Origin: Candidatus Magasanikiibacteriota bacterium | Lineage (GTDB): Bacteria; Patescibacteriota; Patescibacteriia; Magasanikbacterales; UBA922 | Direction: 5' to 3' | Length of the DNA: 64,000 nt | Assembly (NCBI GenBank): GCA_014729395.1 | Contig: WJJZ01000014.1 | Location: 1,955 to 65,954 of the forward strand | In this document: positions 1 to 63,861 of the stretch, piece by piece | Position numbering within the stretch: position 1 is the first letter of the stretch | How the letters are laid out: every line of letters begins with the position of its first letter | Position numbers and translations under genes: made by a program | The notes under the pieces: generated by a model | The model's input: the letters and a program-made list of their open reading frames with translations, nothing else | The model's database searches: none | Told to the model about the DNA's origin: nothing

Positions 1-783
<783 letters not shown>

Positions 784-890: not shown

Positions 891-894
891 TATT

Positions 895-1317
895 ATGATT
901 AAATTCAAAATTGCCACACCTGAACGAATTATCTATGAAGATGAAGTAAAACAGGTTTCTATTCCTACTATAAACGGAGAGATTACAGTTTTACCAAATC
1001 ACATCCCACTGGTTTCAGTTCTGAAAGCCGGTGAGCTTAGGATTGAAGACAAAGAGGGTGAACATCCTATTGCCATTGCCGGTGGTTTTTTGGAGGTAAG
1101 AGGTAACAATGAATTAATAATTTTGGCTGATAATGCTGAAAGGGCCGAAGAGATTGATATTGAACGAGCCAAAGAAGCTCGTGAAAGAGCTATAAAACAA
1201 ATGGAAGAAGCAAAAAATAGACAAGATGTTGACTTTGCCAAATTACAGGCAGTACTGGATAGAGAAATGAATAGGATTAGAGTGGGGAGGAAGTATAAAG
1301 ATGTAGGAAAGGCCTAA
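895..1317 (+). CDS. atpC: F0F1 ATP synthase epsilon subunit
   Basis: 140 aa directly downstream of atpD; N-terminal beta-sandwich motif (KIATPERIIYEDEVKQVSIPTINGEITVLPNHIPLVSVL) and C-terminal helical hairpin. Confidence 0.8.
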   Translation: MIKFKIATPERIIYEDEVKQVSIPTINGEITVLPNHIPLVSVLKAGELRIEDKEGEHPIAIAGGFLEVRGNNELIILADNAERAEEIDIERAKEARERAIKQMEEAKNRQDVDFAKLQAVLDREMNRIRVGRKYKDVGKA

Positions 1318-1474
1318 AAGGCTGGAAAAGCCAGAAAGGCCTGCTAAGTATAAATTTTAAATTTAAAATTTTGAATTTCGATTGAATTTTAAATTATTAA
1401 ATAATTGAATTATTAAAAATTGATTCAAAATTTGAAATTCAAAATTCTAGCGTCAGTCTTCAATAGTAAATAAA

Positions 1475-1498
1475 ACACCCAAGCCGGGTGTTATTTTT
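1475..1498 (+). terminator. Rho-independent terminator hairpin (ACACCC-aagcc-GGGTGT) plus T-run
   Basis: aacacccaagccgggtgttattttt read directly. Confidence 0.6.
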
Positions 1499-1531
1499 GG
1501 CTTATTTCAGCTAATAATTAATAAACTTAGC

Positions 1532-1560
1532 TTGACAAAACCTTATTTTTCTGCTATTAT
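1532..1560 (+). promoter_or_regulatory. Sigma-70-type promoter TTGACA-17-TATTAT
   Basis: ttgaca(1532-1537), 17-nt spacer, tattat(1555-1560); extended agcTTGACA also seen at 2418-2428. Confidence 0.55.
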
Positions 1561-1597
1561 TAAGCGTTAAAATCGGTTCATTTTATTAAGGTTTATC

Positions 1598-1659
1598 CTT
1601 GCTTTCTTTAGGTTTGTTTTTGCTTTTAAAGCAGATCAAAAGAAAGCTTTGGGATAAAC
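1598..1659 (+). ncRNA. Structured 5' leader: long imperfect hairpin GGTTTATCC...GGATAAACC with inner GCTTTCTTT/AAAGAAAGC pairing, upstream of the GC-rich ORF
   Basis: Inverted repeats read directly; function unknown (candidate cis-regulatory RNA). Confidence 0.3.
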
Positions 1660-1764
1660 CCTCGGCTAATACAAAAGTGTCTGCTAGTTTTAGCGGTAAT
1701 ATGCTTAAAGCATAGGGGCTATAAGTGTAGAACTGTTTGACAGCGGATGCGAAAGGAGCGAAAA

Positions 1765-2319
1765 ATGAAGATTACGGTAGAGCAAATTGGTGAGCTGGTG
1801 GAGCAGAGCAAGGGAGAAAACCCGAGAATCACCCGGGAAAGCCTGCAGGCCTTCCTGCGGAATCCCCATTCGGAGGTAAACGCCAAGTCGGTCGAGTACG
1901 TCGTCTCCGTCGATTACGGGATGAGCCTCGCCGAGATGATCGCCGCCGGTCAGTACGGCTGGAAGAACAGCGACATCAACGCGGACAACTTCCCTGTCGC
2001 GGGCGAGGGTATCGCCGAGACCAAGCTCGAGCTTGTCCACCTCAACAAGAAGGCGAGCACGGACGAGGTCGAGGCGTATCTCGAGGAGAACGACCTGCGT
2101 CCGGCGACGCTCGCGGAGCTCCTGGCGTTCGGGACCATGTTCCCCGAGATCCAGCGGGACTTCCCCGTGATCGCTCTCGGCTCGTCTTGTGTCCGCTCGG
2201 ACGGCAACCGGTTCGTGCCCTACCTCTACAGGGACGGCTCCGAGCGGAGCCTCAACCTGAGCTGGGACGACCACGACTGGTACGAGATCTTCCGTTTCCT
2301 CGCCGTCCGCAAGTCCTAG
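1765..2319 (+). CDS. Hypothetical protein, about 65% GC, horizontally acquired (actinobacterial-type codon usage)
   Basis: ATG at 1765 after SD aaaggagcg; GC3 near-saturated, unlike all neighbours; ORF track starts at the upstream in-frame ATG 1747; no recognisable domain. Confidence 0.55.
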   Translation: MKITVEQIGELVEQSKGENPRITRESLQAFLRNPHSEVNAKSVEYVVSVDYGMSLAEMIAAGQYGWKNSDINADNFPVAGEGIAETKLELVHLNKKASTDEVEAYLEENDLRPATLAELLAFGTMFPEIQRDFPVIALGSSCVRSDGNRFVPYLYRDGSERSLNLSWDDHDWYEIFRFLAVRKS

Positions 2320-2358
2320 GTGCTTGTCGCCTTGGGTCCTTGGAGCTGGTTCTTGGTT

Positions 2359-2378
2359 CCCTGCCTGCCGGCAGGCAG
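2359..2378. terminator. Perfect 20-bp GC palindrome cctgcctgccggcaggcagg ending the GC-rich segment; high-GC-style terminator hairpin without a U-tract
   Basis: Read directly. Confidence 0.4.
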
Positions 2379-2558
2379 GCTTGGTCCCATGACGCTTGTG
2401 TCTCATGAATTATGAACCAAGCTTGACAGCACAACAATTTTATGATTTATTTAAATTCTAAAATCGATCTTTTAACAATAAGTTAGTCTTGAATTTCCTC
2501 ATTTCCAATTTCGGCAAGGATAAACGTCTCCTCAAAATAGGAGACAAAGGAGAAAAAC

Positions 2559-2786
2559 ATGGAGACTTTGAAAGCAAAAAAAAATCTACCGATCGAAGGA
2601 CGTAACTATGAGGTTCTTGGTTTTTTTGAAACCGGCGAAGAATCAGAGAGCACCTCAACGGCGGAAGTGATGAATGCGAATTTCGGTAGAGAAGACGGGG
2701 AACACTTCCTAAACATCGGCGGATTGTTTATATTTAATTTATTTATAGCATCACGATGCTTAGAGCCTTGTGTTCTCAAAGCCTGA
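2559..2786 (+). CDS. Hypothetical small protein (75 aa) with hydrophobic C-terminus
   Basis: SD aaaggag 7 nt before the ATG; preceded by a perfect 7-bp hairpin gtctcct-caaaat-aggagac; followed by a terminator. Confidence 0.35.
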   Translation: METLKAKKNLPIEGRNYEVLGFFETGEESESTSTAEVMNANFGREDGEHFLNIGGLFIFNLFIASRCLEPCVLKA

Positions 2787-2811
2787 ATTTTCTTTTCATT
2801 AGACACAACAA

Positions 2812-2864
2812 AACCCCGCACGTGAAAGTTCAATAGAACGAGTAACGCGCGGGGTTCTTTTATT
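2812..2864 (+). terminator. Rho-independent terminator (aaccccgcacg...cgcgcggggtt + TCTTTTATTT)
   Basis: Read directly. Confidence 0.55.
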
Positions 2865-2939
2865 TATTATAACCATAGCCTTTTGAGCCTTTTAGGTTTT
2901 TTAAGCTTTTCCAGCCTTTTATTTATCCCCAAAAAAATC

Positions 2940-2968
2940 TTGATAATTTAGTACAATTTAGGTATAAT
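2940..2968 (+). promoter_or_regulatory. Promoter TTGATA-17-TATAAT upstream of the antiporter gene
   Basis: ttgata(2940-2945), 17-nt spacer, tataat(2963-2968). Confidence 0.5.
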
Positions 2969-3002
2969 ATTGCCGTCCCAAATGGGGCGGTTTTAAATTA
3001 CA

Positions 3003-3050
3003 AAAAGCCTTGTGAGCTTAGTAAGCTTCGCAGGCCTCGTAAGCATTTTA
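3003..3050. repeat. 9-bp-periodic RGCYT unit repeat block (agccttgtg agcttagta agcttcgca ggcctcgta agcatttta)
   Basis: Read directly; same period and flavour as the 784-890 and 4516-4560 blocks. Confidence 0.4.
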
Positions 3051-3055
3051 TATTT

Positions 3056-4360
3056 ATGCAAAAAATTAAATCATTTTTGCTTTTAGCTGTAGAGCTAATT
3101 GCTTTCTCCGCTATTTTATACTATCTGCGCGGAGCACTGGAACATTCTCATCATCATGAGATAAACACAATCATGCCAATCTTGATTGATATCGCATTTT
3201 TGGCAATTTTCGCTTCTTTTGGCGGGCGCTTGGCCAAGATAGTCGGTATTGCCCCGATGGCCGGTAAGATCATTATGGGTATTATCGCCGGACCTGCGTT
3301 GATTGGTGTGTTGCAACCAAATGCCGAGGGTGTAGAGATTGCCAGACTGGCCGGTGTGTTATTTATTTTGTTTGAAGCCGGTTTGCATTTTGATATGGAA
3401 TTACTCAAGAAAAATATCGGTATTGCCAGTCTTGTCGCTTTTTGTGGTGTTTTGATTCCTCTGGTTTCTATTGCTCTGTTAGGCCACTATGGTTTTGGAT
3501 TGACTTGGATGCCGGCAATATTTTTAGGGGGCGTATTCACTGCCACTTCAGTCGGTTTGTCGGTTGAAGCCTTGAAGCGAGCCGGGAAATTGTCAACCAA
3601 CATGGGGAACAAAATTGTCGGTGCAGCCGTGATTGATGATATTTTGGGTGTCTTAGTCCTAACTGTGCTGGCAAAGATGTCAGAAGGTCATTTAGAGGCT
3701 ATGAGCATAGTCTGGATCGGTGTGGCTGTGGTAGCTTTCTTCGGAGGTGCTTATGCTTTATGGAGTTGGGGTGTGGCTGATAAAATTGCCAAGTATCTTG
3801 ATAAACATTATTTGGATACCAGCACCGGACCTTATACCAGATTTTTCTTTGGCGCTCTTATGATGGCCGGAGCTCTTGCAGCCGTAGTTGGTTTGGAACC
3901 TGTTTTGGGTGCCTTTGGTATTGGTGTGGTTTTGTCAAAGGTGGATAATGAAATAAAACACAGTGCCTGGGAAAAAATAGAAGGCTATATGCATATTTTT
4001 GTCGGAGGCTTCTTGGTAAGTATTGGTACCATGCTGCCGCGCGAAGCTTTACTAGCGCCAAAAGCATGGATTCTGGCTATTATTTTAACGATTGTCGGTT
4101 TCTATGGTAAGTATGTCGTGAAATATTTATTCAAAGACAAAAAAGAAGGAAAATTGGTTGCTCTTGCCATGTCTATTCGTGGTGAGGTTGGTCTGGTGTT
4201 TGTAGCTGTAGCTATAAATTACCATGTATTGGATAGCGTTACCGCCGCCGCTGCATTACTCGCTGTAATTCTCGTAACCGTACTTGGGGCTATTTTATTT
4301 GAAAAAGGAGTTATGAAAGATAGTGGAAAGAAATTAGACGCACCGGGAGAAGCGATTTAA
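3056..4360 (+). CDS. Cation:proton antiporter, CPA2 (Kef/NapA-type Na+/H+ exchanger family)
   Basis: 434 aa polytopic membrane protein; glycine-rich TM segments typical of the sodium/hydrogen exchanger fold. Confidence 0.7.
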   Translation: MQKIKSFLLLAVELIAFSAILYYLRGALEHSHHHEINTIMPILIDIAFLAIFASFGGRLAKIVGIAPMAGKIIMGIIAGPALIGVLQPNAEGVEIARLAGVLFILFEAGLHFDMELLKKNIGIASLVAFCGVLIPLVSIALLGHYGFGLTWMPAIFLGGVFTATSVGLSVEALKRAGKLSTNMGNKIVGAAVIDDILGVLVLTVLAKMSEGHLEAMSIVWIGVAVVAFFGGAYALWSWGVADKIAKYLDKHYLDTSTGPYTRFFFGALMMAGALAAVVGLEPVLGAFGIGVVLSKVDNEIKHSAWEKIEGYMHIFVGGFLVSIGTMLPREALLAPKAWILAIILTIVGFYGKYVVKYLFKDKKEGKLVALAMSIRGEVGLVFVAVAINYHVLDSVTAAAALLAVILVTVLGAILFEKGVMKDSGKKLDAPGEAI

Positions 4361-4394
4361 TCTTGAGAAATATAGAAAAATATTGTAAACTAAA

Positions 4395-4419
4395 GCCGTC
4401 TCGTAAGAGGCGGTTTTTT
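4395..4419 (+). terminator. Rho-independent terminator (gccgtctc-gtaa-gaggcgg + TTTTTT)
   Basis: Read directly. Confidence 0.55.
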
Positions 4420-4515
4420 GGTAACAATGAACAAAATAATTTCTACTCGTCTTATTAAAGAATTTAAAATTTTCCACGCCTCTGACTAAGTCTGGAAAAA
4501 ATTTAATTCACCCTT

Positions 4516-4560
4516 GGCCTTTCCAGCCTTTCAGGCATTTCTGGCCTTTTAAGCCTTTTT
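4516..4560. repeat. 9-bp-periodic GCCTTT repeat block (ggcctttcc agcctttca ggcatttct ggcctttta agccttttt)
   Basis: Read directly; resembles the right-hand TIR gcttttccagcctttt. Confidence 0.45.
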
Positions 4561-4562
4561 AT

Positions 4563-4982
4563 ATGTCCCACACATGTTCGTCCGCGTTAATCCGTTGCAT
4601 GGATTTTCGCCTTACTAAAGCAATAAACAATTGGATGGAAGAAAAAAATATCATGAATGACTGTGATATTATTTCCATTGCCGGAGTGGTAAAAGAAATC
4701 GCTTTAAATAAAGATTCTGAAGCTGCTAAATTTATTCTTTCACAAATTGAATTATCAAAAAAATTACATGATATTCAAACTTTATATTTGATTCATCACA
4801 CAGATTGCGGAGCTTATGGTGGTCATAGTGCTTTTGATGATTTAGAAGAAGAAAAAAATAAACATATCAAAGATATGAATGCTGCCAAGGTTATAATTGA
4901 AGAGAATATTGATGGTGTACAAGTTAAATTGGTTTTAGCTGATATGAAAGATGATGGGGTGATTGATATAGGGGAGATTTAA
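4563..4982 (+). CDS. Beta-class carbonic anhydrase-like protein, short form
   Basis: CMDFR and HHTDCGA fit the beta-CA zinc-ligand motifs CxDxR and HxxCG; only 139 aa, so an atypical minimal member. Confidence 0.4.
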   Translation: MSHTCSSALIRCMDFRLTKAINNWMEEKNIMNDCDIISIAGVVKEIALNKDSEAAKFILSQIELSKKLHDIQTLYLIHHTDCGAYGGHSAFDDLEEEKNKHIKDMNAAKVIIEENIDGVQVKLVLADMKDDGVIDIGEI

Positions 4983-5075
4983 TACATGATACACAATTCA
5001 TGCCTGCCTTTGGCAGGGAACACGAGACAAAAATTTTGAATCGTGATATGTGTATCGTGAATCGTGTTTTGTAAT

Positions 5076-5104
5076 TTGACAGCATTTTAATAAAAATTTA
5101 TAAT
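5076..5104 (+). promoter_or_regulatory. Perfect consensus promoter TTGACA-17-TATAAT
   Basis: ttgaca(5076-5081), 17-nt spacer, tataat(5099-5104); about 30 nt upstream of the 44-aa Cys-rich ORF. Confidence 0.6.
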
Positions 5105-5135
5105 TATAAACAGATAACTTCTAAATAAATAAATT

Positions 5136-5270
5136 ATGGAAGAAAATAAATGCCAAAAGTGCGAAACTGTATTAAATGAAATGAATAGATGTTGTGATGG
5201 CGGCACATGCTGCAAAGACTGTCACTCAAATTGCGGTCCTGAATGTAATTGTCAGCCCAATAAAGAATAG
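5136..5270 (+). CDS. Cys-rich microprotein (44 aa, 10 Cys), metallothionein-like CxC / CC / CxxC spacing
   Basis: MEENKCQKCETVLNEMNRCCDGGTCCKDCHSNCGPECNCQPNKE translated by hand; below the ORF-track size cutoff; consensus promoter upstream, T-rich hairpin downstream. Confidence 0.45.
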   Translation: MEENKCQKCETVLNEMNRCCDGGTCCKDCHSNCGPECNCQPNKE

Positions 5271-5331
5271 ATCTAACGGTCTATTTTTTTGTTCTTTTCA
5301 TAAGGGGGTACGCAAAACAAGGAGGTAGTGT

Positions 5332-5502
5332 ATGAATCCCTGCTTCAAAAGAGCGATAGAGAAATTTGGACACCGGAGGGGTATGTTCCCAAAAGTGTTA
5401 AATAAATATTGCAGGAGGTGCAAAAAAGATCGTCGACTTATAAAAAAAACGGCACGATTTTACATTTGCCCCGGTTGCAATACGATGTTTGCCAAATTTT
5501 AA
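5332..5502 (+). CDS. Small zinc-ribbon protein (56 aa, CxxC...CxxC)
   Basis: MNPCFKRAIEKFGHRRGMFPKVLNKYCRRCKKDRRLIKKTARFYICPGCNTMFAKF; strong SD aaggagg 7 nt upstream. Confidence 0.5.
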   Translation: MNPCFKRAIEKFGHRRGMFPKVLNKYCRRCKKDRRLIKKTARFYICPGCNTMFAKF

Positions 5503-5588
5503 TACAACTACCTACGTTTTTTTTGGAGAGATCTTTATGGTCTCTTCTTTTATTTGTGTTATAATAAATATAGTATTAATAATAAAAT

Positions 5589-6122
5589 ATGAGTAAAAAA
5601 CCATACATGCCTTTGGTGCTTGGGACAGCAAGAAATGGTCGACGGTCTGAAAAAGTAGCTTTATACTTTTTTGAACTGTTAAAAAAGCATAATGTAAGTT
5701 CCCGTCTGGTAGATGTTCGTAAAATGATAACCCCATATACGGTCGCGGCTTGGATGGAAGATGAAAAGGCGGCCGATTGGCGAAAAATTGCCACCAAAGC
5801 TGACGCTTTAATAATAGTTACACCTGAATATAATCACGGTTATCCGGGTGAACTGAAGATTTTGCTCGATTATGCTTTTAAAGAGTATGAAGATAAGCCG
5901 GTTGGTTTGTGTACAGTATCCAATGGCGGATTTGGTGGCGTCAGATGTGCGGAAAATTTGTTACCCGTTTTACATGCTTTTAAAATGTGTGTTGTGTATG
6001 AAAAGATCCATATATCCAATGTGGAAAAAAGTTTTTCAAAAGATAAAAATGAATTGGATGCTGAATATAAAGAAAAATTTGATAATCTGGTAAAATCTCT
6101 TGACGAACATATTAAAATTTGA
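5589..6122 (+). CDS. NAD(P)H-dependent FMN reductase family (flavodoxin-like fold)
   Basis: LVLGTARNGRRSEKVA and ALIIVTPEYNHGYPGELKILLD motifs. Confidence 0.6.
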   Translation: MSKKPYMPLVLGTARNGRRSEKVALYFFELLKKHNVSSRLVDVRKMITPYTVAAWMEDEKAADWRKIATKADALIIVTPEYNHGYPGELKILLDYAFKEYEDKPVGLCTVSNGGFGGVRCAENLLPVLHAFKMCVVYEKIHISNVEKSFSKDKNELDAEYKEKFDNLVKSLDEHIKI

Positions 6123-6178
6123 ATCAATAATTGATATTTGATAATATTGACTAAATAATATAAATATTAAGCAATAAT

Positions 6179-6712
6179 ATGAGTAATATAAAAGCCAGAG
6201 TTTCAATGTTAAGTTCCGACGACGTACCTGAAGATATACAAATAATGTATCACACATGGGAGGAAAAATTAGGGAAAATTCCCGAATGGGCCCAGGTGAT
6301 GGCTCACAAACCGAAGATTTTGAAGCACTTTGCCGGTCTTATGAAAGCAACAATGGGTTCAGAGGAAGTTTCAGAAGAATTAAAATGGACAATAGCTTAT
6401 CATGTTTCTAAGATAAACGAATGTGAATATTGTGTAAAAGTCACCAGTAAGAAATTAGAATCAATGGGAATGAAGGAAGAGTTGGTGGACGAAGTTGAAA
6501 AAAGAGTTGAAGAGATGGAGGAAAAAGAAATGGTGGCCTTGAAATATGCTCATATTACGACCAAAGAGGCTTATAAATTACCTGAAGAAGTATTTAATAA
6601 CTTAAAAGAATATTATAATGAAAATCAGATTGTGGAAATTACCGCAGTGGTGGGGTTATTTAATTTTATTAATAGGTTTAATGATGCGTTGGGGGTTTTA
6701 CCCGGAGTTTAA
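6179..6712 (+). CDS. Carboxymuconolactone decarboxylase / AhpD-like family protein
   Basis: AYHVSKINECEYCVKVTSKKL resembles the CMD/AhpD catalytic core. Confidence 0.45.
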   Translation: MSNIKARVSMLSSDDVPEDIQIMYHTWEEKLGKIPEWAQVMAHKPKILKHFAGLMKATMGSEEVSEELKWTIAYHVSKINECEYCVKVTSKKLESMGMKEELVDEVEKRVEEMEEKEMVALKYAHITTKEAYKLPEEVFNNLKEYYNENQIVEITAVVGLFNFINRFNDALGVLPGV

Positions 6713-6723
6713 GATTTATATAA

Positions 6724-6796
6724 CTGACGGATTACGGTTGAAACTGATTTACGGATTGAAAAAATATCCGTAAATCGGTCTGTATCCGTAAATCAG
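6724..6796. promoter_or_regulatory. Cluster of four ACGGAT-containing inverted repeats (candidate operator) just upstream of the helicase-nuclease gene
   Basis: gacggattacgg, ctgatttacggat, atccgtaaatcgg, atccgtaaatcagt; the outer 14-mers ctgatttacggat / atccgtaaatcag are perfect inverted repeats. Confidence 0.4.
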
Positions 6797-6809
6797 TAAT
6801 CAAAGAAGA

Positions 6810-9779
6810 ATGAGTGATTACGCCTTAAACAATTTCCAAAAACAGGCCGTCGAATATAGCGACGGCCCTCTTCTTATTGTTGCCGGGGCGGGAACCGGTA
6901 AAACTTCTGTAATAACGAATAAAATTATTCATCTTATCAAAAAAGGTTTGGCAAAACCTGAAGAAATTTTGGCTTTGACTTTTACGGACAAGGCAGCCGC
7001 AGAAATGGAACTTAGGGTCGATGAGATGCTAGGTAATATAAAGGATGAAAATGCCGTAGGATATCTTGACTTGCAAATTTCAACTTTTCATACTTTTTGT
7101 CAAAGAATTTTGGAAAGTCATGCCATAGACATTGGATTGAGTAATTCTTTCAAATTATTAACTGAGACCGAAACTTGGCTTATGATGAGAGAAAATTTAT
7201 ATGAATTTGAATTTGATTATTATCGGCCATTGGGAAACCCCACTAAACATATCCATGAATTATTAAAACATTTCTCCAAATGTAAGGATGAGCTGATCGA
7301 AGCTTCAGAATATATGGAATATGCGGAAAATATTGAGATTGATAAGGACAATAAAAATATTGACGAAAAAAGTCGTCTGAAAGAAGTGGCCACATTGTAT
7401 CATCAATACAATCAAATGCTTCTTGATAATAATGCAATGGATTTTGGAGATCTGATTTTTTACACGGTAAAATTGATCAGAAAAAATAAGAAAATTGCAG
7501 AGTTGCTGCAAAATCAATACAAATATATTTTGGTCGATGAATTTCAAGACGTGAATTATGCACAATACGAATTGGTAAAATTAATATCAAAAAAAGCACA
7601 ATTAACAGTGGTGGGGGATGATGATCAATCCATTTATGCCTTCAGAGGAGCTTCTGTATCAAATATAATGCGCTTTAAAGATGATTATAGAAATTGCAAA
7701 GATTTGGTATTGAATAAAAATTATCGTTCTCATCAGGCAATTTTAGACATTGCTTATGATTCAATTCAATATAATAATCCGGATAGATTGGAGGTTAAAC
7801 TTGAGATCGATAAAAAATTAAAATTTTCAGGTAAAAATAAAAGAAACGATGAATCCGGAATTGTCAATTTTTTACATTGTAAAGACGTTGATAGTGAGGT
7901 GAGAGAGGTAATAAATAAAATTACTGAAATAAAGCAAAACAAAAAATGTCTGTGGGATGATTTTGCGATTTTAGTAAGAGCCAACAATCATGCGGAAGTT
8001 TTCGTTAATGCTATGGAATCTGCCGGGATACCATACGAATTTCTTGCTTCAAGCGGTTTGTTCAGGCAGGCAATAGTAATTGATAGTGTAAATTTTTTGA
8101 AACTGATCGATAATTATCATGAATCGATATTGGTATTCAGACTTTTAAAACTCCCTTTTTGGAATTTTAGTGAAAATGATTTACAAAAAATAACAAGTAC
8201 GGCAAAGCGAAAAACCATTTCATATTACACAGCTTTGAAAAAAGCGCAAGAATTTGGATTATCAAAAGAAGGGATAAAGACTTGTGACGAATTATTGAAA
8301 TTGATTCACAATGGAATGAAGACAGCCAGATTTGAAAAACCAAGTAAAGTTCTTTATGAATTTTTGGACAAAAGCGGTTATTTGAAATATCTTATTGAAG
8401 GTGAGGATCGTGGGCAAGCAAAAGTAATCAGAGAAATTTACCACATAAAGCAATTTTTTGAATACATTGATAAATACGAAAATGCCAATCCGGAAGCAAC
8501 AGTATCCAGTTTTATAGAATATTATTTGTCACTTTTGGAGTCGGGAGATGATGGAAATCTTTACCAGCCGGAAGATACACCGGATTCGGTTAATATTATG
8601 ACTATTCATGGAGCAAAGGGTTTGGAATATAAATATGTTTTTTTGGTAAATTTGGTTCAAGACAGATTTCCAACCAGAAGGAGATCCGAAGCAATTAAAA
8701 TTCCAAGATCTCTAATCAAAGAAGATTTGCCGGAAGGAGATATTCACGAACAAGAAGAAAGAAGGCTTTTTTATGTCGCTATTACCAGAGCAGAGGATAG
8801 ATTATTTTTTACATCCGCTGATTATTATGGTGGTGTAAGGAAAAAGAAAATCAGCAAATTTCTAGTAGAGCTTGGCTTTGACAGTAAAAATAAAGCAAAA
8901 GACGAAACAGGGTCGGTGATTAAATTTTTGCCAAAAGAATCAAAGTCTGTAGAAGAGAAAGCGGAAATGATTTATGAATTACCCAAGACTTTTTCATTTT
9001 CTCAAATTCGCAGTTATGAAACCTGTCCTTATCAGTATAAATTAAATTATATTTTAAAATTACAAACAAAAGGAAATGCCAGCTTTAGTTTTGGAAAAAG
9101 CATGCATTCTACCATGCAAAAATTTTATAGTAAAATTCAGCAGTTAAATGAAGTAAAGCAGGATTCTTTGTTTGGGTTGCCAAAAGAGACCGTTGTAAAA
9201 TCAAATATTAAAGTACCACCGGTTGCTAAATTGATTAAAATATACGAAGAGAATTGGATTGAAGATTGGTACAAAAGTAAACAGCAACGAGAAACTTATT
9301 ATAAAAAAGGAAAAAAAATATTAAAAGCTTTTTATAGTTCACAGGAAAATAACTGGACTATTCCGGTAGCTTTGGAAAAATGGTTTAAGATTAAAGTCGG
9401 CAATTATTTGATAAGAGGTAGTATTGATCGAGTTGATAAAATTGATGATAATAAACTGGAAATAATAGACTATAAAACCGGAAAGTCTAAGGAAAAATTA
9501 TCTACCAACGACAAGGATCAATTGTTAATTTATCAAATGGCTGCCGAGACTTTACCTGAATATAAAAATTTAGGTTTGGTAGACAAGCTGACTTTTTATT
9601 ATTTAAATGACAATTTACAAGTTTCTTTTTTGGGTAAAGAGAAAGAAATTGATAAGATTAAAAAGAAAATTGTAAAATCAATAGATGAAATACAAAATGG
9701 AAATTTTAAAGCTACACCAAGTAAATTCAAATGTAAATATTGCGATTTTAAAGATGTTTGCGGTTACAGGAAAATTTAA
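6810..9779 (+). CDS. UvrD/PcrA-family SF1 helicase fused to a C-terminal PD-(D/E)XK Cas4/RecB-like nuclease with a 4-Cys cluster
   Basis: N-terminal Walker A AGAGTGKTSVIT, motif II VDEFQD, motif GDDDQSIYAFRGA; C-terminal ETCPYQYKL...IDYKTGK...CKYCDFKDVCG. Confidence 0.8.
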   Translation: MSDYALNNFQKQAVEYSDGPLLIVAGAGTGKTSVITNKIIHLIKKGLAKPEEILALTFTDKAAAEMELRVDEMLGNIKDENAVGYLDLQISTFHTFCQRILESHAIDIGLSNSFKLLTETETWLMMRENLYEFEFDYYRPLGNPTKHIHELLKHFSKCKDELIEASEYMEYAENIEIDKDNKNIDEKSRLKEVATLYHQYNQMLLDNNAMDFGDLIFYTVKLIRKNKKIAELLQNQYKYILVDEFQDVNYAQYELVKLISKKAQLTVVGDDDQSIYAFRGASVSNIMRFKDDYRNCKDLVLNKNYRSHQAILDIAYDSIQYNNPDRLEVKLEIDKKLKFSGKNKRNDESGIVNFLHCKDVDSEVREVINKITEIKQNKKCLWDDFAILVRANNHAEVFVNAMESAGIPYEFLASSGLFRQAIVIDSVNFLKLIDNYHESILVFRLLKLPFWNFSENDLQKITSTAKRKTISYYTALKKAQEFGLSKEGIKTCDELLKLIHNGMKTARFEKPSKVLYEFLDKSGYLKYLIEGEDRGQAKVIREIYHIKQFFEYIDKYENANPEATVSSFIEYYLSLLESGDDGNLYQPEDTPDSVNIMTIHGAKGLEYKYVFLVNLVQDRFPTRRRSEAIKIPRSLIKEDLPEGDIHEQEERRLFYVAITRAEDRLFFTSADYYGGVRKKKISKFLVELGFDSKNKAKDETGSVIKFLPKESKSVEEKAEMIYELPKTFSFSQIRSYETCPYQYKLNYILKLQTKGNASFSFGKSMHSTMQKFYSKIQQLNEVKQDSLFGLPKETVVKSNIKVPPVAKLIKIYEENWIEDWYKSKQQRETYYKKGKKILKAFYSSQENNWTIPVALEKWFKIKVGNYLIRGSIDRVDKIDDNKLEIIDYKTGKSKEKLSTNDKDQLLIYQMAAETLPEYKNLGLVDKLTFYYLNDNLQVSFLGKEKEIDKIKKKIVKSIDEIQNGNFKATPSKFKCKYCDFKDVCGYRKI

Positions 9780-29998: not shown

Positions 29999-30022
29999 GT
30001 AGAAATGACCAGGGTGGGGGAG

Positions 30023-30047
30023 AGGCTTAATAATGAGCCTTTTTTTA
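30023..30047 (+). terminator. Rho-independent terminator (aggct-taataatg-agcct + TTTTTTT)
   Basis: Read directly. Confidence 0.55.
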
Positions 30048-30124
30048 TATGAATTTTATAAAAATTTTATCATTATTTCATCTTATATAAGGCATAATAA
30101 GTTTATTATTCTAAGAATAATTTT

Positions 30125-30298
30125 ATGCCAAGTATAAATTGTATAGATCATTTAAACAAAAATGAAAAAAAAGGTGAATTATTAAGTGATCATTATGTTC
30201 ATGATTGGTCCATGATTGGTTGGGATGGGGTATATATGTTTAGAATTTGTCGCAATTGCGGGGTCAGGGAAAATGATAAAGGTTATGCCAGAGGCTAG
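30125..30298 (+). CDS. Possible small Cys/His-containing protein (57 aa) in a long convergent intergenic region
   Basis: MPSINCIDHLNKNEKKGELLSDHYVHDWSMIGWDGVYMFRICRNCGVRENDKGYARG; weak RBS. Confidence 0.25.
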   Translation: MPSINCIDHLNKNEKKGELLSDHYVHDWSMIGWDGVYMFRICRNCGVRENDKGYARG

Positions 30299-30855
30299 TA
30301 TAATAGAGGTGTCGCACATTGTATATTATGCGACATGTTAATAAAATATTGGCTCCACGATCGGTATTAAATACTTATATTACGATATTTAAATATAACG
30401 AATAATATAATAATTAATAATTTATTAAATAATTATATATTAATACTGTTTATGTAATTTGCTGTTATTCTGATTTTGCTCTGCATTTAATTTTCTGCTT
30501 ATTTTAGCCAAATAATACACATTTTGCGACACCACAAAAACCAGGCTTATTTTCAGAGGGTATAACATACCGGGTACTTTTGTAAAAACTTTTATTGAAA
30601 CATGAGGATGCTCTACTTTAACTATAAGATTGAGGACTGTAAATAAAATATTAACTTAAAAAGTGAAAAAAATAAATTTAACTGTAAAATTGCAATTCTA
30701 ATTATCAAATTTTTTAAAATTTTAAAATTATAACTATTCAATTTATTTTTTTGGATAATATGCTATTATTTTTATATTAACAAAGCAGAGTGTTTGTTTT
30801 ACCTCTCTCCCCTTTTGATTACAATTCGTCTTTCAAATATTGTGCGACACCAGTG

Positions 30856-31491
30856 TTATATACCTTTTGCTTTGATGACTGTTAGTAAAGTTTTGAATAA
30901 AATCCATACGTCTTTTAGGAAAATGCTAATACACCCTTTTTTGTCAATAAATTTAATATACTCTCTATCAACTTTTGTTTGATCTATCGCACTACCCTTC
31001 TCTGATTGAAAAGGTCCTGTTAGGCCACATTTCATAATATAATTATTAAAGTTTTTTTGCTGCCTCATCATTTTGGAATTTTCAACATTGGTTGGACGAG
31101 GACCTACCATCGTCATATCCCCTATTATTATGTTCCATAGCTGGGGTAGTTCGTCCATGTAGATTTGTTTTAAAAATCTTCCATAAAAGGTCAGATTTTT
31201 TTTATTTTTTTCCAGAGGTTTTGTGTGTATACAATCTGTATCTTTCAATTGATCAAGGACCTTTTTCTTAAAAATTCTGAACTTATAAAATTTAAATTTT
31301 TTACCTTGTGAAATTCTAGTTTCCTTATATAAAATTGGCCCGCGTGAACCTGGTATAAAAATTTGCTCCAATAAAATCCACAAAAAGATGAAAATTAAAA
31401 AAGGAACGGTAATCAATAATAAAATAAAACTGACCGCTAGGTCAAAAATTCTTTTAGTAACAGGTAATTTTATTTTTTTAGGATTTTTCAT
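30856..31491 (-). CDS. Bacterial sugar transferase (WbaP/EpsL-type polyprenyl-phosphate glycosyl-1-phosphate transferase)
   Basis: N-terminal TM; KRIFDL...PQLWNIIIGDMTMVGPRP signature. Confidence 0.7.
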   Translation of the reverse strand: MKNPKKIKLPVTKRIFDLAVSFILLLITVPFLIFIFLWILLEQIFIPGSRGPILYKETRISQGKKFKFYKFRIFKKKVLDQLKDTDCIHTKPLEKNKKNLTFYGRFLKQIYMDELPQLWNIIIGDMTMVGPRPTNVENSKMMRQQKNFNNYIMKCGLTGPFQSEKGSAIDQTKVDREYIKFIDKKGCISIFLKDVWILFKTLLTVIKAKGI

Positions 31492-59988: not shown

Positions 59989-60051
59989 TAATATTGGGTC
60001 TTTTTTTATTGAGACATGCTAGTAACCAAAATGATATTTTTTAAAATAATA

Positions 60052-60083
60052 ATACCCCACTCTTATGTAGGGTATTATTTTTT
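60052..60083 (+). terminator. Terminator hairpin (ataccc-cactcttatgta-gggtat + TTTTTT)
   Basis: Read directly. Confidence 0.5.
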
Positions 60084-60084
60084 G

Positions 60085-60433
60085 CTCGGCGGGCGAGATT
60101 CGAACTCGCGACCCATTGGTTACATCGATTCTTACTCTTTCGAATAAGGATGGACTATATCATCACCCGTGCCATAGACTTCTTTAAAAGAAGAACACTG
60201 GGGTGCGAGGCGCTTCCTCCTTACCAAATCAAATGATTTGCAGAAGTACTCCCGAAAGGGATAGTCTCTGAACCTTCCCAACTCCATATGTGGTGTTGGA
60301 CTCGGCTGCTGATCACCCATCCAGATTAATAAGGACTAGGGCTTCCAGCAATTCACCTCGTTTTCATCTTGATGTTTCCACCAAGAGCTGCTTTTAAATA
60401 CAGCCAATTGCTCTACCACTGAGCTACCGCCGA
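60085..60433 (-). tRNA. tRNA-Asn(GUU) interrupted by a group I intron; exons 60433..60400 (34 nt) and 60122..60085 (38 nt); no CCA encoded
   Basis: Minus strand: acceptor TCGGCGG/CCGCCGA (7 bp), D arm GCTC-AGTGGTA-GAGC, anticodon stem ATTGG/CCAAT, spliced loop CTGTTAA (anticodon GTT), T arm GCGAG-TTCGAAT-CTCGC, discriminator G. Confidence 0.8.
60123..60399 (-). ncRNA. Group I self-splicing intron (277 nt) in the tRNA-Asn anticodon loop between positions 35 and 36
   Basis: Core elements P AATTGCTGGAAG, Q GATCAGCAGCC, R GGTTCAGAGACTA, S GATGATATAGTCC; 5' exon ends ...GCTGT pairing with intron GCAGC (U-G at the splice site); intron ends with G (60123). Confidence 0.75.
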
Positions 60434-60486
60434 ATTAAGTTTAAATTTGCTTACGAATTGGACATTCATAAACAAATTTGACCTAA
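60421..60486. repeat. Direct repeat copy A (tRNA 5' end plus 53 bp upstream), repeated at 60665-60730
   Basis: ctaccgccgaattaagtttaaatttgcttacgaattggacattcataaacaaatttgacct is identical in both copies. Confidence 0.7.
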
Positions 60487-60664
60487 CATAACAAAAAAGC
60501 GAAGTGGTGCCCACTGCCTGCCCACCGAAGTCCCGAGCTTGTCGAGGGACGGAGGTGGGAGCTACCGCCGATCACGTAAAGCAGACTTCGTCTGCCACGT
60601 GACAAGATCATTTTATTTTAAAACCAAACTGCTCTTGTCGCGTGGTGAGCGAAGCGAACTTTAC

Positions 60665-60730
60665 GCGAAGCTACCGCCGAATTAAGTTTAAATTTGCTTA
60701 CGAATTGGACATTCATAAACAAATTTGACC
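60665..60730. repeat. Direct repeat copy B (12 nt of the tRNA-Asn 5' end plus the same 53-bp upstream segment)
   Basis: Read directly; a third 13-nt copy of the tRNA 5' end lies at 60548-60560. Confidence 0.7.
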
Positions 60731-60895
60731 TATTTTTAGTTTTGTGAACAAAAAAATTATAGCATCTGTGCTAAATTCAGTCAAGAAATGATTATTTTAT
60801 TTACATTTTAAAAAAAATTTATCAAAATTTTATTATAATTGTTTTATAATACTTGCATAAATAGCTCTTTATGATAAATTATAAAAAAAACTATT

Positions 60896-62372: not shown

Positions 62373-63861
62373 CTAGATCATAAACTTATCCCCCAAAACA
62401 AAGCCTTCTTTTTTTATTTCATACTCAAAAATTGATTTATTATGGTCGCTGCCACGCATTTTAAGAATATTACACAATTTTCTTACGCTTTGTTCTCTCT
62501 CTACATACCGTAACAAGATAACACCGTCCACAATTGATCTTAAACGCATCTCATTACTTGATAAGTTACCCAAAAGCTGCCCTCTGGATGCTCCAAAATT
62601 TTCAGACATAAGATAATTTGCCAGACAAGTTATTTCCTTTGTTTTAAAAAAACCAACTAAATTAATCAAAAATTCCCTAACCTCAAATTTATCTATTGTA
62701 GCCGATATCAAACTTGAAATGGAATCAATAACTACTCTTTTTATATTTTTCTCATTCACGATATCCACGACTTCCTACAATATTTTATCAGTTACTAAAT
62801 TGATTAGAGGAGCATTTAAATAACTAAGTTGCCTTTTTTTTCAAAGGAATCAAAGTTCCAACCATGCTCTTTGGCTGTTTTAAATACCTGTACCTTTGAC
62901 TCTTCCAAACCTAACCATAAAACATTTTCACCCTTTTTAACGCCTTCAGTTAAAAAATGCATACCAATGGTTGTTTTTTCACTACCGGTGTTTCCCCCAA
63001 TTAAAATTGTATGCCCTTGGGGGATTCCTCCCCCCATTAATTTATCAAAAGCCGGTAAACCAAAAGATAAGCGCTTTTTAAAATTTGTTTTAAACACAGT
63101 CGTATCAATAGGGATTTTTGGAAAAACGGTTATACCATTATTATCAATAACATACTCCACCTTTCCGTTTCTATATTCCACACCTCTTAATTTTCTAACA
63201 TATAAATACCGACGAACACTATTAAAACTAAATTCGGTTTTTAGCTGGATAAACCCGTCCAAAGTATATTCCTCTACACCATATTTGGTGAGATGGTCGC
63301 CATCCGACCCAGCTTCTGAACTAAAAATCATAGTTATGCCGCTTTTTTCCAATTCTTCTGAAAGTTTAAACAAGATATTTCTTATCTTATCATGATTCTT
63401 GAATCGTGTAAACAAACAGGCCATAGAGTCAATGACAACTCGTTTAGCCTTAATCTTGCTAACAGCATGTTTTATTCGGATAATAATTGGTTTTAAACTA
63501 TATTCAATTTCTTGATCTACCCCTTCGCCATCCAATACTTTTAATTCAGTATATGACATATTAACAAAAGCGAGTTTTTTTTCATTAACAAGCTCCTCAA
63601 AATCCCAACCAAAACCGGAGACATTTTTTATGATTTCTGCAGCTGTTCTTCAAAAGTAACAAAAACACCATTTTCTTTATATTTTGTAATTCCATGATAC
63701 AAAAATTCAGATAAAAATACTGTTTTTCCTGCCCCAGCCTCTCCGGATACGAGTAAGGAACGTCCGGCCGGAAAGCCACCGGACAACACTTCATCTAAAC
63801 CCTCTATACCTGTTTTTACTCGATTAATTGATAATGGCTTTTTTTTATTTTTTTGATTCAT
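62373..63861 (-). pseudogene. KaiC-like double RecA-domain ATPase broken into three ORFs (63628-63861, 62816-63559, 62373-62768) by a frameshift near 63645 and a frameshift plus stop near 62770-62815
   Basis: Walker A GEAGAGKT (domain 1) and GGNTGSEKT (domain 2); hand translation upstream of 63559 in the second frame gives EIIKNVSGFGWDFEELVNEKKL, which continues KaiC-like FVTFEE of the first ORF in a different frame. Confidence 0.6.

What the first reader, a model, noticed from the sequence alone, without database searches (positions are those of the whole stretch)
60085..60433. tRNA-Asn(GUU) gene split by a 277-nt group I intron in the anticodon loop
Seen directly: on the minus strand a complete tRNA is present only if 60123-60399 is removed. 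All standard elements are there (7-bp acceptor TCGGCGG/CCGCCGA, D arm, ATTGG/CCAAT anticodon stem, T arm GCGAG-TTCGAAT-CTCGC, discriminator G as in Asn tRNAs, spliced loop CTGTTAA). The insert carries the conserved group I P, Q, R and S boxes (AATTGCTGGAAG / GATCAGCAGCC / GGTTCAGAGACTA / GATGATATAGTCC). The 5' exon end GCTGU can pair with intron GCAGC to form P1 with the canonical U-G, and the intron ends in G. Bacterial tRNA group I introns are best known in tRNA-Leu(UAA), tRNA-fMet, tRNA-Ile and tRNA-Arg of cyanobacteria and a few proteobacteria. An Asn tRNA host with insertion between nt 35 and 36 in a small AT-rich genome would be unusual. The intron has no homing-endonuclease ORF; the 62-aa ORF at 60132-60320 overlaps the catalytic core and is spurious.
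Basis: partly seen in the sequence, partly recalled or inferred. Interest (0 to 1): 0.8.

Follow-up and report, generated by a model that had tools for sequence, protein, structure and literature searches.

The report
Self-splicing intron inside a tRNA-Asn gene
The asparagine tRNA gene of this uncultured Patescibacteria (CPR) bacterium is interrupted in its anticodon by a 277-base self-splicing group I intron; the call is correct, but this arrangement is already published as common in this phylum and was shown to splice in vitro, so it is one more example, not a discovery.

Summary
Rfam Intron_gpI matches 60131-60409(-) at 95.6 bits (E 2e-23). Intron-aware ARAGORN calls tRNA-Asn(GUU) at 60084-60433(-), with a 277-nt intron after position 35.

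Thirty other HEG-less tRNA-Asn introns from other genomes support the structure I drew: P1-P9, the P3/P7 pseudoknot, and the IA-type P7.1/P7.2. In that structure 91% of cells pair, against 35-47% in slid controls. The anticodon stem split by the intron covaries at all 5 pairs.

The host is a Candidatus Magasanikbacteria MAG (Patescibacteria/CPR).
- Williams (bioRxiv 2020) catalogued this type as "Asn.4Ug".
- Nakagawa et al. (mSystems 2026) found it in 15 of 95 complete Patescibacteria genomes and showed precise in vitro self-splicing of a homolog.

Verdict: a new member of a known kind, of low interest.

One side observation is unexplained. A lineage-specific 247-nt insertion sits between the gene and its strong promoter. 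It carries "ghost" copies of the tRNA's own 5' end and a terminator. Similar ghost 5' or 3' tRNA fragments flank roughly a quarter of the related intron-bearing tRNA-Asn genes.

The parts
60400..60433 (-). tRNA-Asn 5' exon (tRNA positions 1-35): acceptor 5' strand, D arm, anticodon-stem 5' strand, and C32 U33 G34 U35
   Evidence: ARAGORN on the spliced product and with introns allowed. It is 100% identical to the ortholog in L001.
60123..60399 (-). Group I intron, 277 nt, subgroup IA type, no homing-endonuclease gene
   Evidence: Rfam RF00028 at 95.6 bits, E 2e-23. Covariation on 31 homologs supports the structure.
60085..60122 (-). tRNA-Asn 3' exon: U36 A37 A38, anticodon-stem 3' strand, variable loop, T arm, acceptor 3' strand, discriminator G. 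CCA is not encoded.
   Evidence: The anticodon stem split across the two exons covaries at 5 of 5 pairs.
60386..60405 (-). P1: exon GGCUGU (60405-60400) pairs with the internal guide sequence GCAGCU (60391-60386). U35.G wobble at the 5' splice site; 8-nt loop.
   Evidence: Seen in the sequence. The four pairs nearest the splice site (U.G, G-C, U-A, C-G) are invariant in 31 of 31 homologs.
60368..60385 (-). P2 hairpin with GAAA tetraloop
   Evidence: All 7 pairs show double-sided changes (helix 4).
60342..60353 (-). P box (AATTGCTGGAAG): J3/4 plus the P4 5' strand
   Evidence: helix 6.
60304..60314 (-). Q box (GATCAGCAGCC): P4 3' strand plus P6 5' strand
60262..60274 (-). R box (GGTTCAGAGACTA): P6 3' strand, J6/7 and the P7 5' strand, including the presumed G-binding-site pair
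   Evidence: Invariant in 31 of 31 homologs. The 6 P7 pairs are 100% paired but never vary (helix 9).
60217..60261 (-). P7.1 (60261-60250, UCCC-UUUC-GGGA) and P7.2 (60246-60217). These peripheral hairpins lie between P7 and P3' and define subgroup IA.
   Evidence: 4 of 4 pairs (P7.1) and 5 of 5 pairs (P7.2) show double-sided changes (helices 10 and 11).
60206..60212 (-). P3 3' strand (CGCCUCG), pairing with 60360-60354 (CGAGGUG). P3 and P7 together form the core pseudoknot.
   Evidence: helix 5: 94.9% paired, 4 pairs with double-sided changes.
60164..60205 (-). P8 hairpin
   Evidence: helix 12: 92.9% paired, 4 of the 5 counted basal pairs covary.
60152..60164 (-). S box (GATGATATAGTCC): J8/7 plus the P7 3' strand
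   Evidence: invariant.
60131..60148 (-). P9 hairpin with GAAA tetraloop. The intron then ends ...AAUCGAUG, with omega-G at 60123.
   Evidence: helix 13 (6 of 7 pairs covary). Omega-G is invariant in 31 of 31 homologs.
60043..60079 (-). Hairpin (-17.3 kcal/mol) followed by a U-rich run: the probable intrinsic terminator of the tRNA gene
   Evidence: RNAfold.
60756..60784 (-). Strong sigma-70-type promoter: TTGACT, 17-nt spacer, TG-n-TATAAT (11 of 12 matches)
   Evidence: L001 has an equivalent promoter about 25 nt upstream of its tRNA.
60669..60732 (-). Direct repeat copy A1: 52 nt of leader plus the first 12 nt of the tRNA (a ghost 5' exon). It is 100% identical to 60422-60485.
   Evidence: blastn of the window against itself; sequence.
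60486..60668 (-). Unique 183-nt insert (52% G+C in a 34% genome). It holds a 97-nt hairpin X (60668-60572, -43 kcal/mol), a third copy of the tRNA 5' 13-mer (60571-60559), and segment Y, which ends in a terminator-like hairpin plus U6 (about 60515-60495).
   Evidence: Absent from the syntenic relatives L001 and L034. Y-like elements sit upstream of tRNA-Asn in L065 and L121.
60422..60485 (-). Direct repeat copy A2: the leader immediately upstream of the tRNA plus the first 12 nt of the functional tRNA

Best explanation
This is a functional tRNA-Asn(GUU) gene of a Candidatus Magasanikbacteria (Patescibacteria) bacterium. A 277-nt subgroup-IA group I intron without a homing endonuclease interrupts it between anticodon nucleotides U35 and U36.

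Inferred pathway:
1. The gene is transcribed as a precursor.
2. The intron folds into the P3-P8 catalytic core. IA-type P7.1/P7.2 and two GAAA tetraloops (L2, L9) are present and may help stabilise the fold.
3. The 5' exon end GGCUGU pairs with the internal guide GCAGCU to form P1. U35 sits in a U.G wobble there.
4. A free guanosine bound in P7 attacks after U35.
5. The terminal G (60123) then occupies the same site, and the freed U35 3'-OH attacks after it. This ligates CUGU to UAA and gives a normal anticodon loop, CUGUUAA.
6. End processing and CCA addition complete the tRNA.

What is shown here: the sequence elements, the structure supported by covariation, conservation in an ortholog, and membership of the published class. 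What is inferred: splicing activity, from in vitro assays on a homolog that is about 66% identical over the window gene's length.

The intron is most likely inherited vertically within this lineage. It is probably retained because imprecise loss from the anticodon would be lethal.
For: - Rfam RF00028 scores 95.6 bits, E 2e-23, over the full-length model.
The spliced product folds as a canonical cloverleaf.
- U at -1, G at omega and a 6-bp P1 with the U.G wobble are all present. The alternative Thr(UGU) boundary would give omega = A and no wobble.
- On 31 homologous HEG-less tRNA-Asn introns, 91.1% of cells pair against 35-47% in slid controls. 47 of 79 pairs show double-sided changes. The covariation score is 0.382 against at most 0.118, and 0 of 500 shuffles reach the observed values.
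- In the cloverleaf test 98.8% of cells pair, and all 5 anticodon-stem pairs covary across the intron.
- The syntenic ortholog L001 is 75% identical in phosphoglycerate mutase and 67% in the response regulator. Its exons are 100% identical, its core is conserved, and its P5a, P6a, P7.1 and P7.2 differ in sequence but still form hairpins.
- The host is Patescibacteria.
- The published class has in vitro splicing, sequencing of the ligated tRNA, and an omega-G-to-C control (PMC13011429).
- The window gene is 66-70% identical, over its own length, to three published members, and has the same boundaries.
- The same arrangement occurs in 59 further species-level genomes.
Against: - There is no expression or splicing data for this locus.
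- Only 64 kb of the genome is visible, so a second intron-less tRNA-Asn cannot be excluded.
- A terminator-like hairpin with U6 (about 60515-60495) now lies between the only strong promoter (60784-60756) and the gene. No good promoter was found in the 52-nt proximal leader. Transcription therefore seems to depend on read-through.
- P7 and the four P1 pairs nearest the splice site never vary, so covariation says nothing about them.
- The subgroup IA assignment rests on the presence of P7.1/P7.2 and on the paper's statement. I did not run a subgroup-specific model.
Confidence: 0.9

Rival explanations
1. The gene is a decaying or silenced copy. The intron-bearing tRNA-Asn is no longer expressed, because the 247-nt insertion cut it off from its promoter, or it no longer splices. 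Another tRNA-Asn elsewhere in the genome does the work.
For: - A 247-nt insertion with a terminator-like hairpin and U6 separates the strong promoter from the gene.
- No convincing promoter lies in the proximal leader.
- Only part of the genome is visible; the contig is 85.5 kb.
Against: - Every catalytic-core element, the U.G wobble, omega-G and the whole cloverleaf are intact.
- The exons are 100% identical to those of an ortholog whose proteins have diverged by 25-33%. This argues for purifying selection.
- The two 64-nt repeat copies are still identical, which may mean the insertion is recent, so decay might not yet be visible.
- The terminator hairpin is weak, -7.9 kcal/mol, so read-through is plausible.
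- L065 and L121 keep the same promoter-Y-tRNA layout.
- The published survey found intron-bearing and intron-less copies of the same anticodon together only rarely.
Confidence: 0.07
2. The host is tRNA-Thr(UGU) with the intron at 33/34. This is the boundary, shifted by 2 nt, that ARAGORN and tFind often choose for this class.
For: ARAGORN with introns allowed labels 32 of the 60 related loci Thr(tgt). In the window, the shifted splice product also folds as a cloverleaf that ARAGORN calls tRNA-Thr(tgt).
Against: - In the window the shifted boundary makes the intron end in A rather than G. It also pairs the -1 U with A rather than in a U.G wobble.
- ARAGORN itself calls Asn here.
- U1-A72 and discriminator G73 are typical of bacterial tRNA-Asn (established knowledge of tRNA identity elements).
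- Sequencing of the in vitro ligated product of a homolog showed the 35/36 junction (PMC13011429).
Confidence: 0.02
3. The match is a chance resemblance or an assembly artefact.
For: The source is a metagenome-assembled genome.
Against: - The Rfam E-value is 2e-23.
- An independent assembly, GCA_964433095.1, has the orthologous intron in the same syntenic position.
- There are 59 further genomes with the same arrangement, and they covary.
Confidence: 0.01

Closest known systems
Group I introns at position 35/36 of tRNA-Asn(GUU) in Patescibacteria (Nakagawa et al., mSystems 2026, PMC13011429; 'Asn.4Ug' of Williams, bioRxiv 2020, 10.1101/2020.01.27.920355)
   Same: - Same host tRNA and anticodon, and the same insertion site.
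- Same CUGU|...G|UAA boundaries and the same GCAGC guide sequence.
- Same phylum.
- Same IA-type core with P7.1/P7.2, and no homing endonuclease.
- Default tRNA finders miss it in the same way.
- Over the window gene's length it is 66% identical to the in vitro validated GCA_016700035.1 gene. It is 70% identical to GCA_016699245.1, which shares the P7.1 (UCCC-N4-GGGA), GUA, P7.2, GAAGCGCC layout.
   Different: - The window comes from a draft Magasanikbacteria MAG. It is not one of the 95 complete genomes surveyed, and the word 'Magasanik' appears nowhere in the paper or its supplement.
- Peripheral helices differ in sequence and length.
- Its upstream region carries a 247-nt insertion with ghost 5' exon copies. 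The paper's Results and Discussion, as far as I read them (parts 1-3 of 4), do not mention such copies.
Classical bacterial tRNA group I introns of subgroup IC3: cyanobacterial and plastid tRNA-Leu(UAA) at 34/35, tRNA-fMet at 33/34, Azoarcus tRNA-Ile(CAU) and Agrobacterium tRNA-Arg(CCU) at 36/37
   Same: Self-splicing group I ribozymes in the anticodon loop of a bacterial tRNA. They share the U.G wobble at the 5' splice site, omega-G, the P/Q/R/S core, and mostly the lack of an ORF.
   Different: They sit in different host tRNAs at different positions. They belong to a different structural subgroup: IC3 lacks P7.1/P7.2, which are present here and covary. According to the paper, no Patescibacteria tRNA intron is IC.
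Subgroup IA introns of phages, for example T4 td (recalled from the literature, not tested here)
   Same: IA architecture, with extra P7.1/P7.2 hairpins between P7 and P3'.
   Different: The phage introns interrupt protein-coding genes and usually carry homing-endonuclease ORFs. The window region has no match in the phage collection.

Membership tests
Group I intron (Rfam RF00028) | Covariance-model score above the curated gathering threshold | tested here: met
   95.6 bits against 50, E 2.2e-23, model positions 1-253 of 253.
Group I intron (Rfam RF00028) | The 5' exon ends in U, which forms a U.G wobble in P1 with an internal guide sequence | tested here: met
   GGCUGU pairs with GCAGCU, and U35 pairs with G. 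The U.G pair is present in 31 of 31 homologs.
Group I intron (Rfam RF00028) | The intron ends in G (omega-G) | tested here: met
   G at 60123; invariant in 31 of 31 homologs.
Group I intron (Rfam RF00028) | Conserved core helices P3-P8, with the P3/P7 pseudoknot and the guanosine-binding pair in P7 | tested here: met
   P3, P4, P5, P6a and P8 pair in 80-95% of cells and show compensatory changes. P7 is 100% paired but invariant, so covariation cannot test it.
Group I intron (Rfam RF00028) | Guanosine-dependent self-splicing | not testable with these tools
   Shown in vitro only for homologs (PMC13011429).
Patescibacterial tRNA-Asn(GUU) 35/36 intron class | The host is tRNA-Asn(GUU) and the intron lies between positions 35 and 36 | tested here: met
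   ARAGORN on the spliced product and with introns allowed. The boundary rules exclude the Thr alternative.
Patescibacterial tRNA-Asn(GUU) 35/36 intron class | Host genome belongs to Patescibacteria (CPR) | tested here: met
   The phosphoglycerate mutase is 100% identical to a protein of a Candidatus Magasanikbacteria MAG. Most of the named homologs among the best hits are from Magasanikbacteria, Uhrbacteria or the Patescibacteria group.
Patescibacterial tRNA-Asn(GUU) 35/36 intron class | Subgroup IA architecture (P7.1/P7.2 between P7 and P3') | tested here: met
   A 49-nt segment (60261-60213) between the R box and P3' forms two hairpins. Compensatory changes occur at 4 of 4 and 5 of 5 pairs. 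I did not run a subgroup covariance model.
Patescibacterial tRNA-Asn(GUU) 35/36 intron class | Sequence homology to published members | tested here: met
   66-70% identity over the window gene's length to three Table S3 sequences, including the validated one.
IC3 tRNA introns (tRNA-Leu(UAA) type) | Compact IC3 core without P7.1/P7.2, inserted at 34/35 (Leu), 33/34 (fMet) or 36/37 (Ile, Arg) | tested here: not met
   The insertion is at 35/36 of tRNA-Asn, and P7.1/P7.2 are present.
Mobile group I intron carrying a homing endonuclease | An intron-encoded endonuclease ORF (HNH, LAGLIDADG, GIY-YIG or PD-(D/E)XK) | tested here: not met
   The intron is only 277 nt. Its single 62-aa ORF has no Pfam hit at E<=1 and overlaps the core.

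The most novel reading that the evidence does not exclude
The ghost copies of the tRNA's own ends may be footprints of how these mostly endonuclease-less tRNA-Asn genes or introns move or get replaced.

The observations:
- In the window there are three 5' copies, counting the real gene. They lie within a derived 247-nt insertion that places a conserved 'Y' element and a terminator between promoter and gene.
- Across Patescibacteria, 5' fragments occur only upstream and 3' fragments only downstream, in roughly a quarter of the intron-bearing tRNA-Asn loci.

Possible mechanisms:
- One-sided homing with illegitimate double-strand-break repair.
- Miniature integrative elements that target the D-arm or T-loop of tRNA-Asn.
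- Alternatively, the promoter-proximal unit (5' fragment plus Y plus terminator) is a cis-regulatory attenuator or decoy RNA that controls tRNA-Asn supply.
Probability: 0.2. Interest if true: 0.55.

Novelty: new member of a known kind. Interest (0 to 1): 0.25.

Why it matters
For annotation the point is practical. Default tRNA finders miss this gene, so the MAG would appear to lack tRNA-Asn and would score as less complete. For biology it adds one Magasanikbacteria example, with a syntenic ortholog, to a class that is already documented and experimentally validated. It opens no new question about group I introns.

The only part that might lead somewhere is the flanking ghost exons and the insertion between promoter and gene. 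These could bear on two open questions: how tRNA introns without endonucleases spread or persist in reduced genomes, and whether expression of an essential single-copy tRNA is modulated. That part remains unexplained.

Tried and rejected
- Phage origin: blastn of 60000-60700 against 50,697 phage records found nothing. A Y-motif scan of viral contigs also found nothing.
- Exact-protein look-ups for the window's response regulator and phosphoglycerate mutase were not on record. The source record was therefore identified only through the homolog search.
- Other RNA families near the tRNA: only sub-threshold chance hits. The GC-rich upstream insert matches no Rfam family.
- A permissive enumeration of all splice boundaries (+/-4 nt on each side) gave many competing ARAGORN calls and could not be read directly. 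I replaced it with an explicit rule: U at -1, G at omega, Asn at 35/36.
- I did not build a custom covariance model. The roughly 350-column model would exceed the calibration limit, so I used a MAFFT alignment with a hand-drawn structure instead.
- Control for the ghost 5' fragments: the fetched loci hold only 14 intron-less tRNAs with enough upstream flank (0 positive; Fisher p = 0.34). Whether the fragments are specific to intron-bearing genes could not be tested. Three of 19 non-Asn intron-bearing tRNAs had upstream 12-mer matches, but these may be neighbouring full tRNA genes and were not examined.
- Integrase hypothesis: between tRNA-Asn and its distant 3' ghost copy, L065 encodes a P-type ATPase and a DUF302 protein, and L067 encodes a 1519-aa SF1 helicase. 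No recombinase domain was found in the four large ORFs I searched.
- The possible 43-codon ORF inside the insert was dropped. The Pfam search on 60487-60618 failed because the range I submitted translated with two internal stops, and I did not repeat it.
Full report
**1. The observation**

On the minus strand, 60433-60400 reads TCGGCGGTAGCTCAGTGGTAGAGCAATTGGCTGT and 60122-60085 reads TAACCAATGGGTCGCGAGTTCGAATCTCGCCCGCCGAG. A 277-nt insert (60399-60123) separates them.
- ARAGORN in default mode finds no tRNA anywhere in the 64-kb window.
- On the joined exons it calls a canonical 72/73-nt tRNA-Asn(GUU). With introns allowed it calls tRNA-Asn c[60084,60433] with a 277-nt intron after position 35.
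- A scan of the whole window against Rfam gives one hit above gathering: Intron_gpI (RF00028) at 60131-60409(-), 95.6 bits against a threshold of 50, E 2.2e-23, covering model positions 1-253.

**2. The genome**

The neighbouring genes are ordinary bacterial chromosomal genes. They include a cofactor-independent phosphoglycerate mutase, a TetR regulator, an efflux adaptor, a histidine kinase, an OmpR-type response regulator and KaiC-like ATPases. The region has no match in the phage collection.

The phosphoglycerate mutase is 100% identical to a protein of a Candidatus Magasanikbacteria MAG on an 85.5-kb contig. Most of the named homologs among the best hits are from Magasanikbacteria, Uhrbacteria or the Patescibacteria group. 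The host is therefore a CPR/Patescibacteria bacterium with 34% G+C.

**3. Anatomy of the intron**

I placed the helices using the Rfam alignment, a minimum-free-energy fold and inspection.

| Element | Details |
|---|---|
| P1 | exon GGCUGU with guide GCAGCU; U35.G wobble |
| P2 | GAAA tetraloop |
| P3 | CGAGGUG with CGCCUCG |
| P4, P5/P5a, P6/P6a | core and extensions |
| P7 | GAGACUA with UAGUCC, one bulged A |
| P7.1 | UCCC-UUUC-GGGA |
| P7.2 | 30-nt hairpin |
| P8 | hairpin |
| P9 | GAAA tetraloop |
| 3' end | ...AAUCGAUG; the terminal G is omega-G |

The two hairpins between P7 and P3' are the signature of subgroup IA. The boundary shifted by 2 nt, which tRNA finders often prefer for this class and which gives tRNA-Thr(UGU) at 33/34, would make the intron end in A here. 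It would also destroy the U.G wobble. The 62-aa ORF at 60132-60320 has no Pfam match and overlaps the core, so the intron carries no homing endonuclease.

**4. Comparative test**

A syntenic relative, L001, comes from assembly GCA_964433095.1. Its phosphoglycerate mutase is 75% identical and its adjacent response regulator 67% identical to the window's.
- It has the same gene in the same place.
- Rfam scores its intron at 93.5 bits.
- The exons are 100% identical and the core is conserved.
- P5a, P6a, P7.1 and P7.2 differ in sequence but still form hairpins.

I then scanned the species-representative genome collection with a pattern built from the R and S boxes at IA spacing. I resolved boundaries by the group I rules. 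In 59 independent genomes besides the window there is a tRNA-Asn(GUU) solution of the form CUGU|...G|UAA at 35/36. Intron lengths run from 238 to 668 nt.
- Forty of these genomes carry explicit CPR names.
- Most of the rest are unnamed, or carry automatic labels that are wrong at least for L001.

I aligned the 31 members with introns of 300 nt or less and counted pairs for my structure.
- 91.1% of cells pair, against 35-47% when partners are slid by 1-3 columns.
- 47 of 79 pairs have changes on both sides.
- The covariation score is 0.382, against at most 0.118 in the slid controls. No shuffle out of 500 reached the observed values.
- P2, P3, P5, P6a, P7.1, P7.2, P8 and P9 all show compensatory changes.
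- P7 and the four P1 pairs nearest the splice site are invariant, so covariation cannot test them.
- The cloverleaf, including the anticodon stem that the intron splits, pairs in 98.8% of cells, and all five anticodon-stem pairs covary. This is direct evidence that the two exon halves work together as one tRNA.

**5. Mechanism**

The best-supported explanation is the standard group I pathway.
1. The precursor folds.
2. Exogenous guanosine bound in P7 attacks the phosphate after U35, which P1 presents in the U.G wobble.
3. Omega-G (60123) replaces it in the site.
4. The U35 3'-OH attacks after omega-G and ligates the exons. This gives the loop CUGUUAA.

The sequence and structure elements are shown here. 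Catalysis is inferred. It has been demonstrated in vitro, with sequencing of the ligated tRNA and an omega-G-to-C control, for a homolog (PMC13011429). The window gene is 66% identical to that homolog over its own length and has identical boundaries.

**6. Comparison with what is known**

Nakagawa et al. (mSystems 2026; preprint July 2025) report the following:
- 15 tRNA-Asn(GUU) and 3 tRNA-Asp genes with group I introns at 35/36 in 95 complete Patescibacteria genomes;
- standard tools miss or mislabel them;
- they self-splice precisely;
- nearly all Patescibacteria tRNA introns are subgroup IA and none is IC;
- most lack endonuclease genes.

Williams (bioRxiv 2020) had already expanded the list of intron-interrupted tRNA types to 21. 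The 2026 paper cites the type 'Asn.4Ug' from that work.

The window meets every defining feature of this class that can be tested here; the membership table lists them. This is a new member of a known kind. The paper never names Magasanikbacteria. My scan shows at least six other MAGs labelled Magasanikbacteria with the same arrangement.

**7. An unexplained flank**

The strong promoter sits at 60784-60756 (TTGACT, 17-nt spacer, TG-n-TATAAT). It does not sit next to the gene as it does in L001.

*The insertion.* A perfect 64-nt direct repeat (60732-60669 = 60485-60422) consists of 52 nt of leader plus the first 12 nt of the tRNA. It brackets a unique 183-nt segment of 52% G+C. That segment contains:
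- a 97-nt hairpin (X, -43 kcal/mol), itself flanked by 12-nt TCGGCGGTAGCT copies;
- a third copy of the tRNA 5' 13-mer;
- a segment (Y) that ends in a terminator-like hairpin plus U6.

*Relatives.*
- The syntenic relatives L001 and L034 lack all of this, so the 247-nt insertion is derived.
- Y-like elements occur just upstream of tRNA-Asn in two non-syntenic Magasanikbacteria loci, L065 and L121. Each begins with that species' own tRNA 5' end: TCGGTGG there, TCGGCGG here.
- An X-like hairpin abuts the tRNA-Asn 5' end in L098.

*The wider pattern.*
- In 8 of 60 intron-bearing tRNA-Asn loci, from several CPR classes, the tRNA's own first 12 nt recur 41-247 nt upstream. They never recur downstream or on the opposite strand.
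- In eight others the last 18-24 nt recur 145-223 nt downstream, each followed by its own terminator.
- The chance expectation is about 7e-4 per locus (my estimate).
- The available control of intron-less tRNAs is too small to tell whether this is specific to intron-bearing genes.
- No recombinase domain was found in the four large ORFs searched in the two larger intervals.

*Candidate explanations.* None was tested.
- Scars of illegitimate double-strand-break repair during homing.
- Remnants of small integrative elements.
- A regulatory leader.

For the main finding, the consequence is that transcription of this tRNA apparently needs read-through of the Y terminator. This is the main reason for keeping a small probability on the silenced-copy rival.

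**8. Verdict**

| Question | Answer |
|---|---|
| Observation | confirmed |
| Interpretation | correct on anatomy and mechanism; not unusual for this phylum |
| Novelty | new member of a known, experimentally validated class |
| Interest | low (0.25) |

The flanking ghost exons are recorded as an open side observation.

Noticed in passing
window 60422-60784 (minus strand): A derived 247-nt insertion lies between the strong promoter and the tRNA. A perfect 64-nt direct repeat (leader plus the first 12 nt of the tRNA) brackets a GC-rich 183-nt segment. That segment holds a 97-nt hairpin flanked by 12-nt tRNA 5' copies, a third 13-mer copy, and a terminator. The syntenic relatives L001 and L034 lack it.
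   Followed up: partly
L003, L011, L059, L063, L065, L089, L092 (upstream of tRNA-Asn); L011, L032, L033, L067, L092, L093, L101, L109 (downstream): Ghost exons. The tRNA's own first 12-23 nt recur 41-247 nt upstream. Its last 18-24 nt (T-loop to discriminator, each with its own terminator) recur 145-223 nt downstream. About a quarter of intron-bearing tRNA-Asn loci across several CPR classes show one or the other. L059 has two tandem 82-nt units. L011, L092 and L093 share the flank GTACCGTCCATGTAATGGAA next to the 3' fragment. Williams (2020) mentions Aragorn 'ghost exons' but gives no explanation.
   Followed up: partly
L065 5036-5108 and L121 about 3700-3790 (minus strands); window 60495-60571: A conserved element of about 75 nt ('Y') sits between promoter and tRNA-Asn in three Magasanikbacteria genomes with different flanking genes. 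It starts with the host tRNA's own 5' 13-mer and ends with GGCAGGCAGTGG-NN-ACCACTTCGC. It has no Rfam match, no hit in viral contigs, and only one hit in the metagenome scan.
   Followed up: partly
L098 2828-2962; window 60572-60668: Long hairpins with related ends (CGCGTAAAG...CTTTACGYG) abut the 5' end of tRNA-Asn or of its ghost copy. An inner stem shows compensatory changes (GCAGAC-GAA-GTCTGC against GCGGAC-AAA-GTCCGC). They may be small palindromic mobile elements or processing signals.
   Followed up: no
L065 about 730-4583; L067 about 2497-7804: Gene islets lie between tRNA-Asn and a distant copy of its 3' end. L065 has a P-type ATPase plus a DUF302 protein, and L067 has a 1519-aa SF1 helicase with a Top1-type zinc ribbon. 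No recombinase domain was found in the four large ORFs searched.
   Followed up: partly
window 62373-63559 (minus strand): Two adjacent ORFs (131 aa and 247 aa) match consecutive parts of KaiC-family ATPases and are separated by 47 nt. This looks like a gene broken by a frameshift or a stop codon, or a sequencing error.
   Followed up: no
L001 (= L057), L008, L016, L036, L038, L049, L108, L113: These third-party (TPA) assemblies are labelled 'uncultured Gammaproteobacteria' yet carry the Patescibacteria-type tRNA-Asn intron. L001 is clearly a Magasanikbacteria relative, judged by protein identity and synteny, so these taxon labels look wrong.
   Followed up: partly
window about 30000-31000: Cumulative GC skew rises steadily to about 30 kb and then falls. 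This suggests a switch in replication or gene-strand polarity within the window.
   Followed up: no
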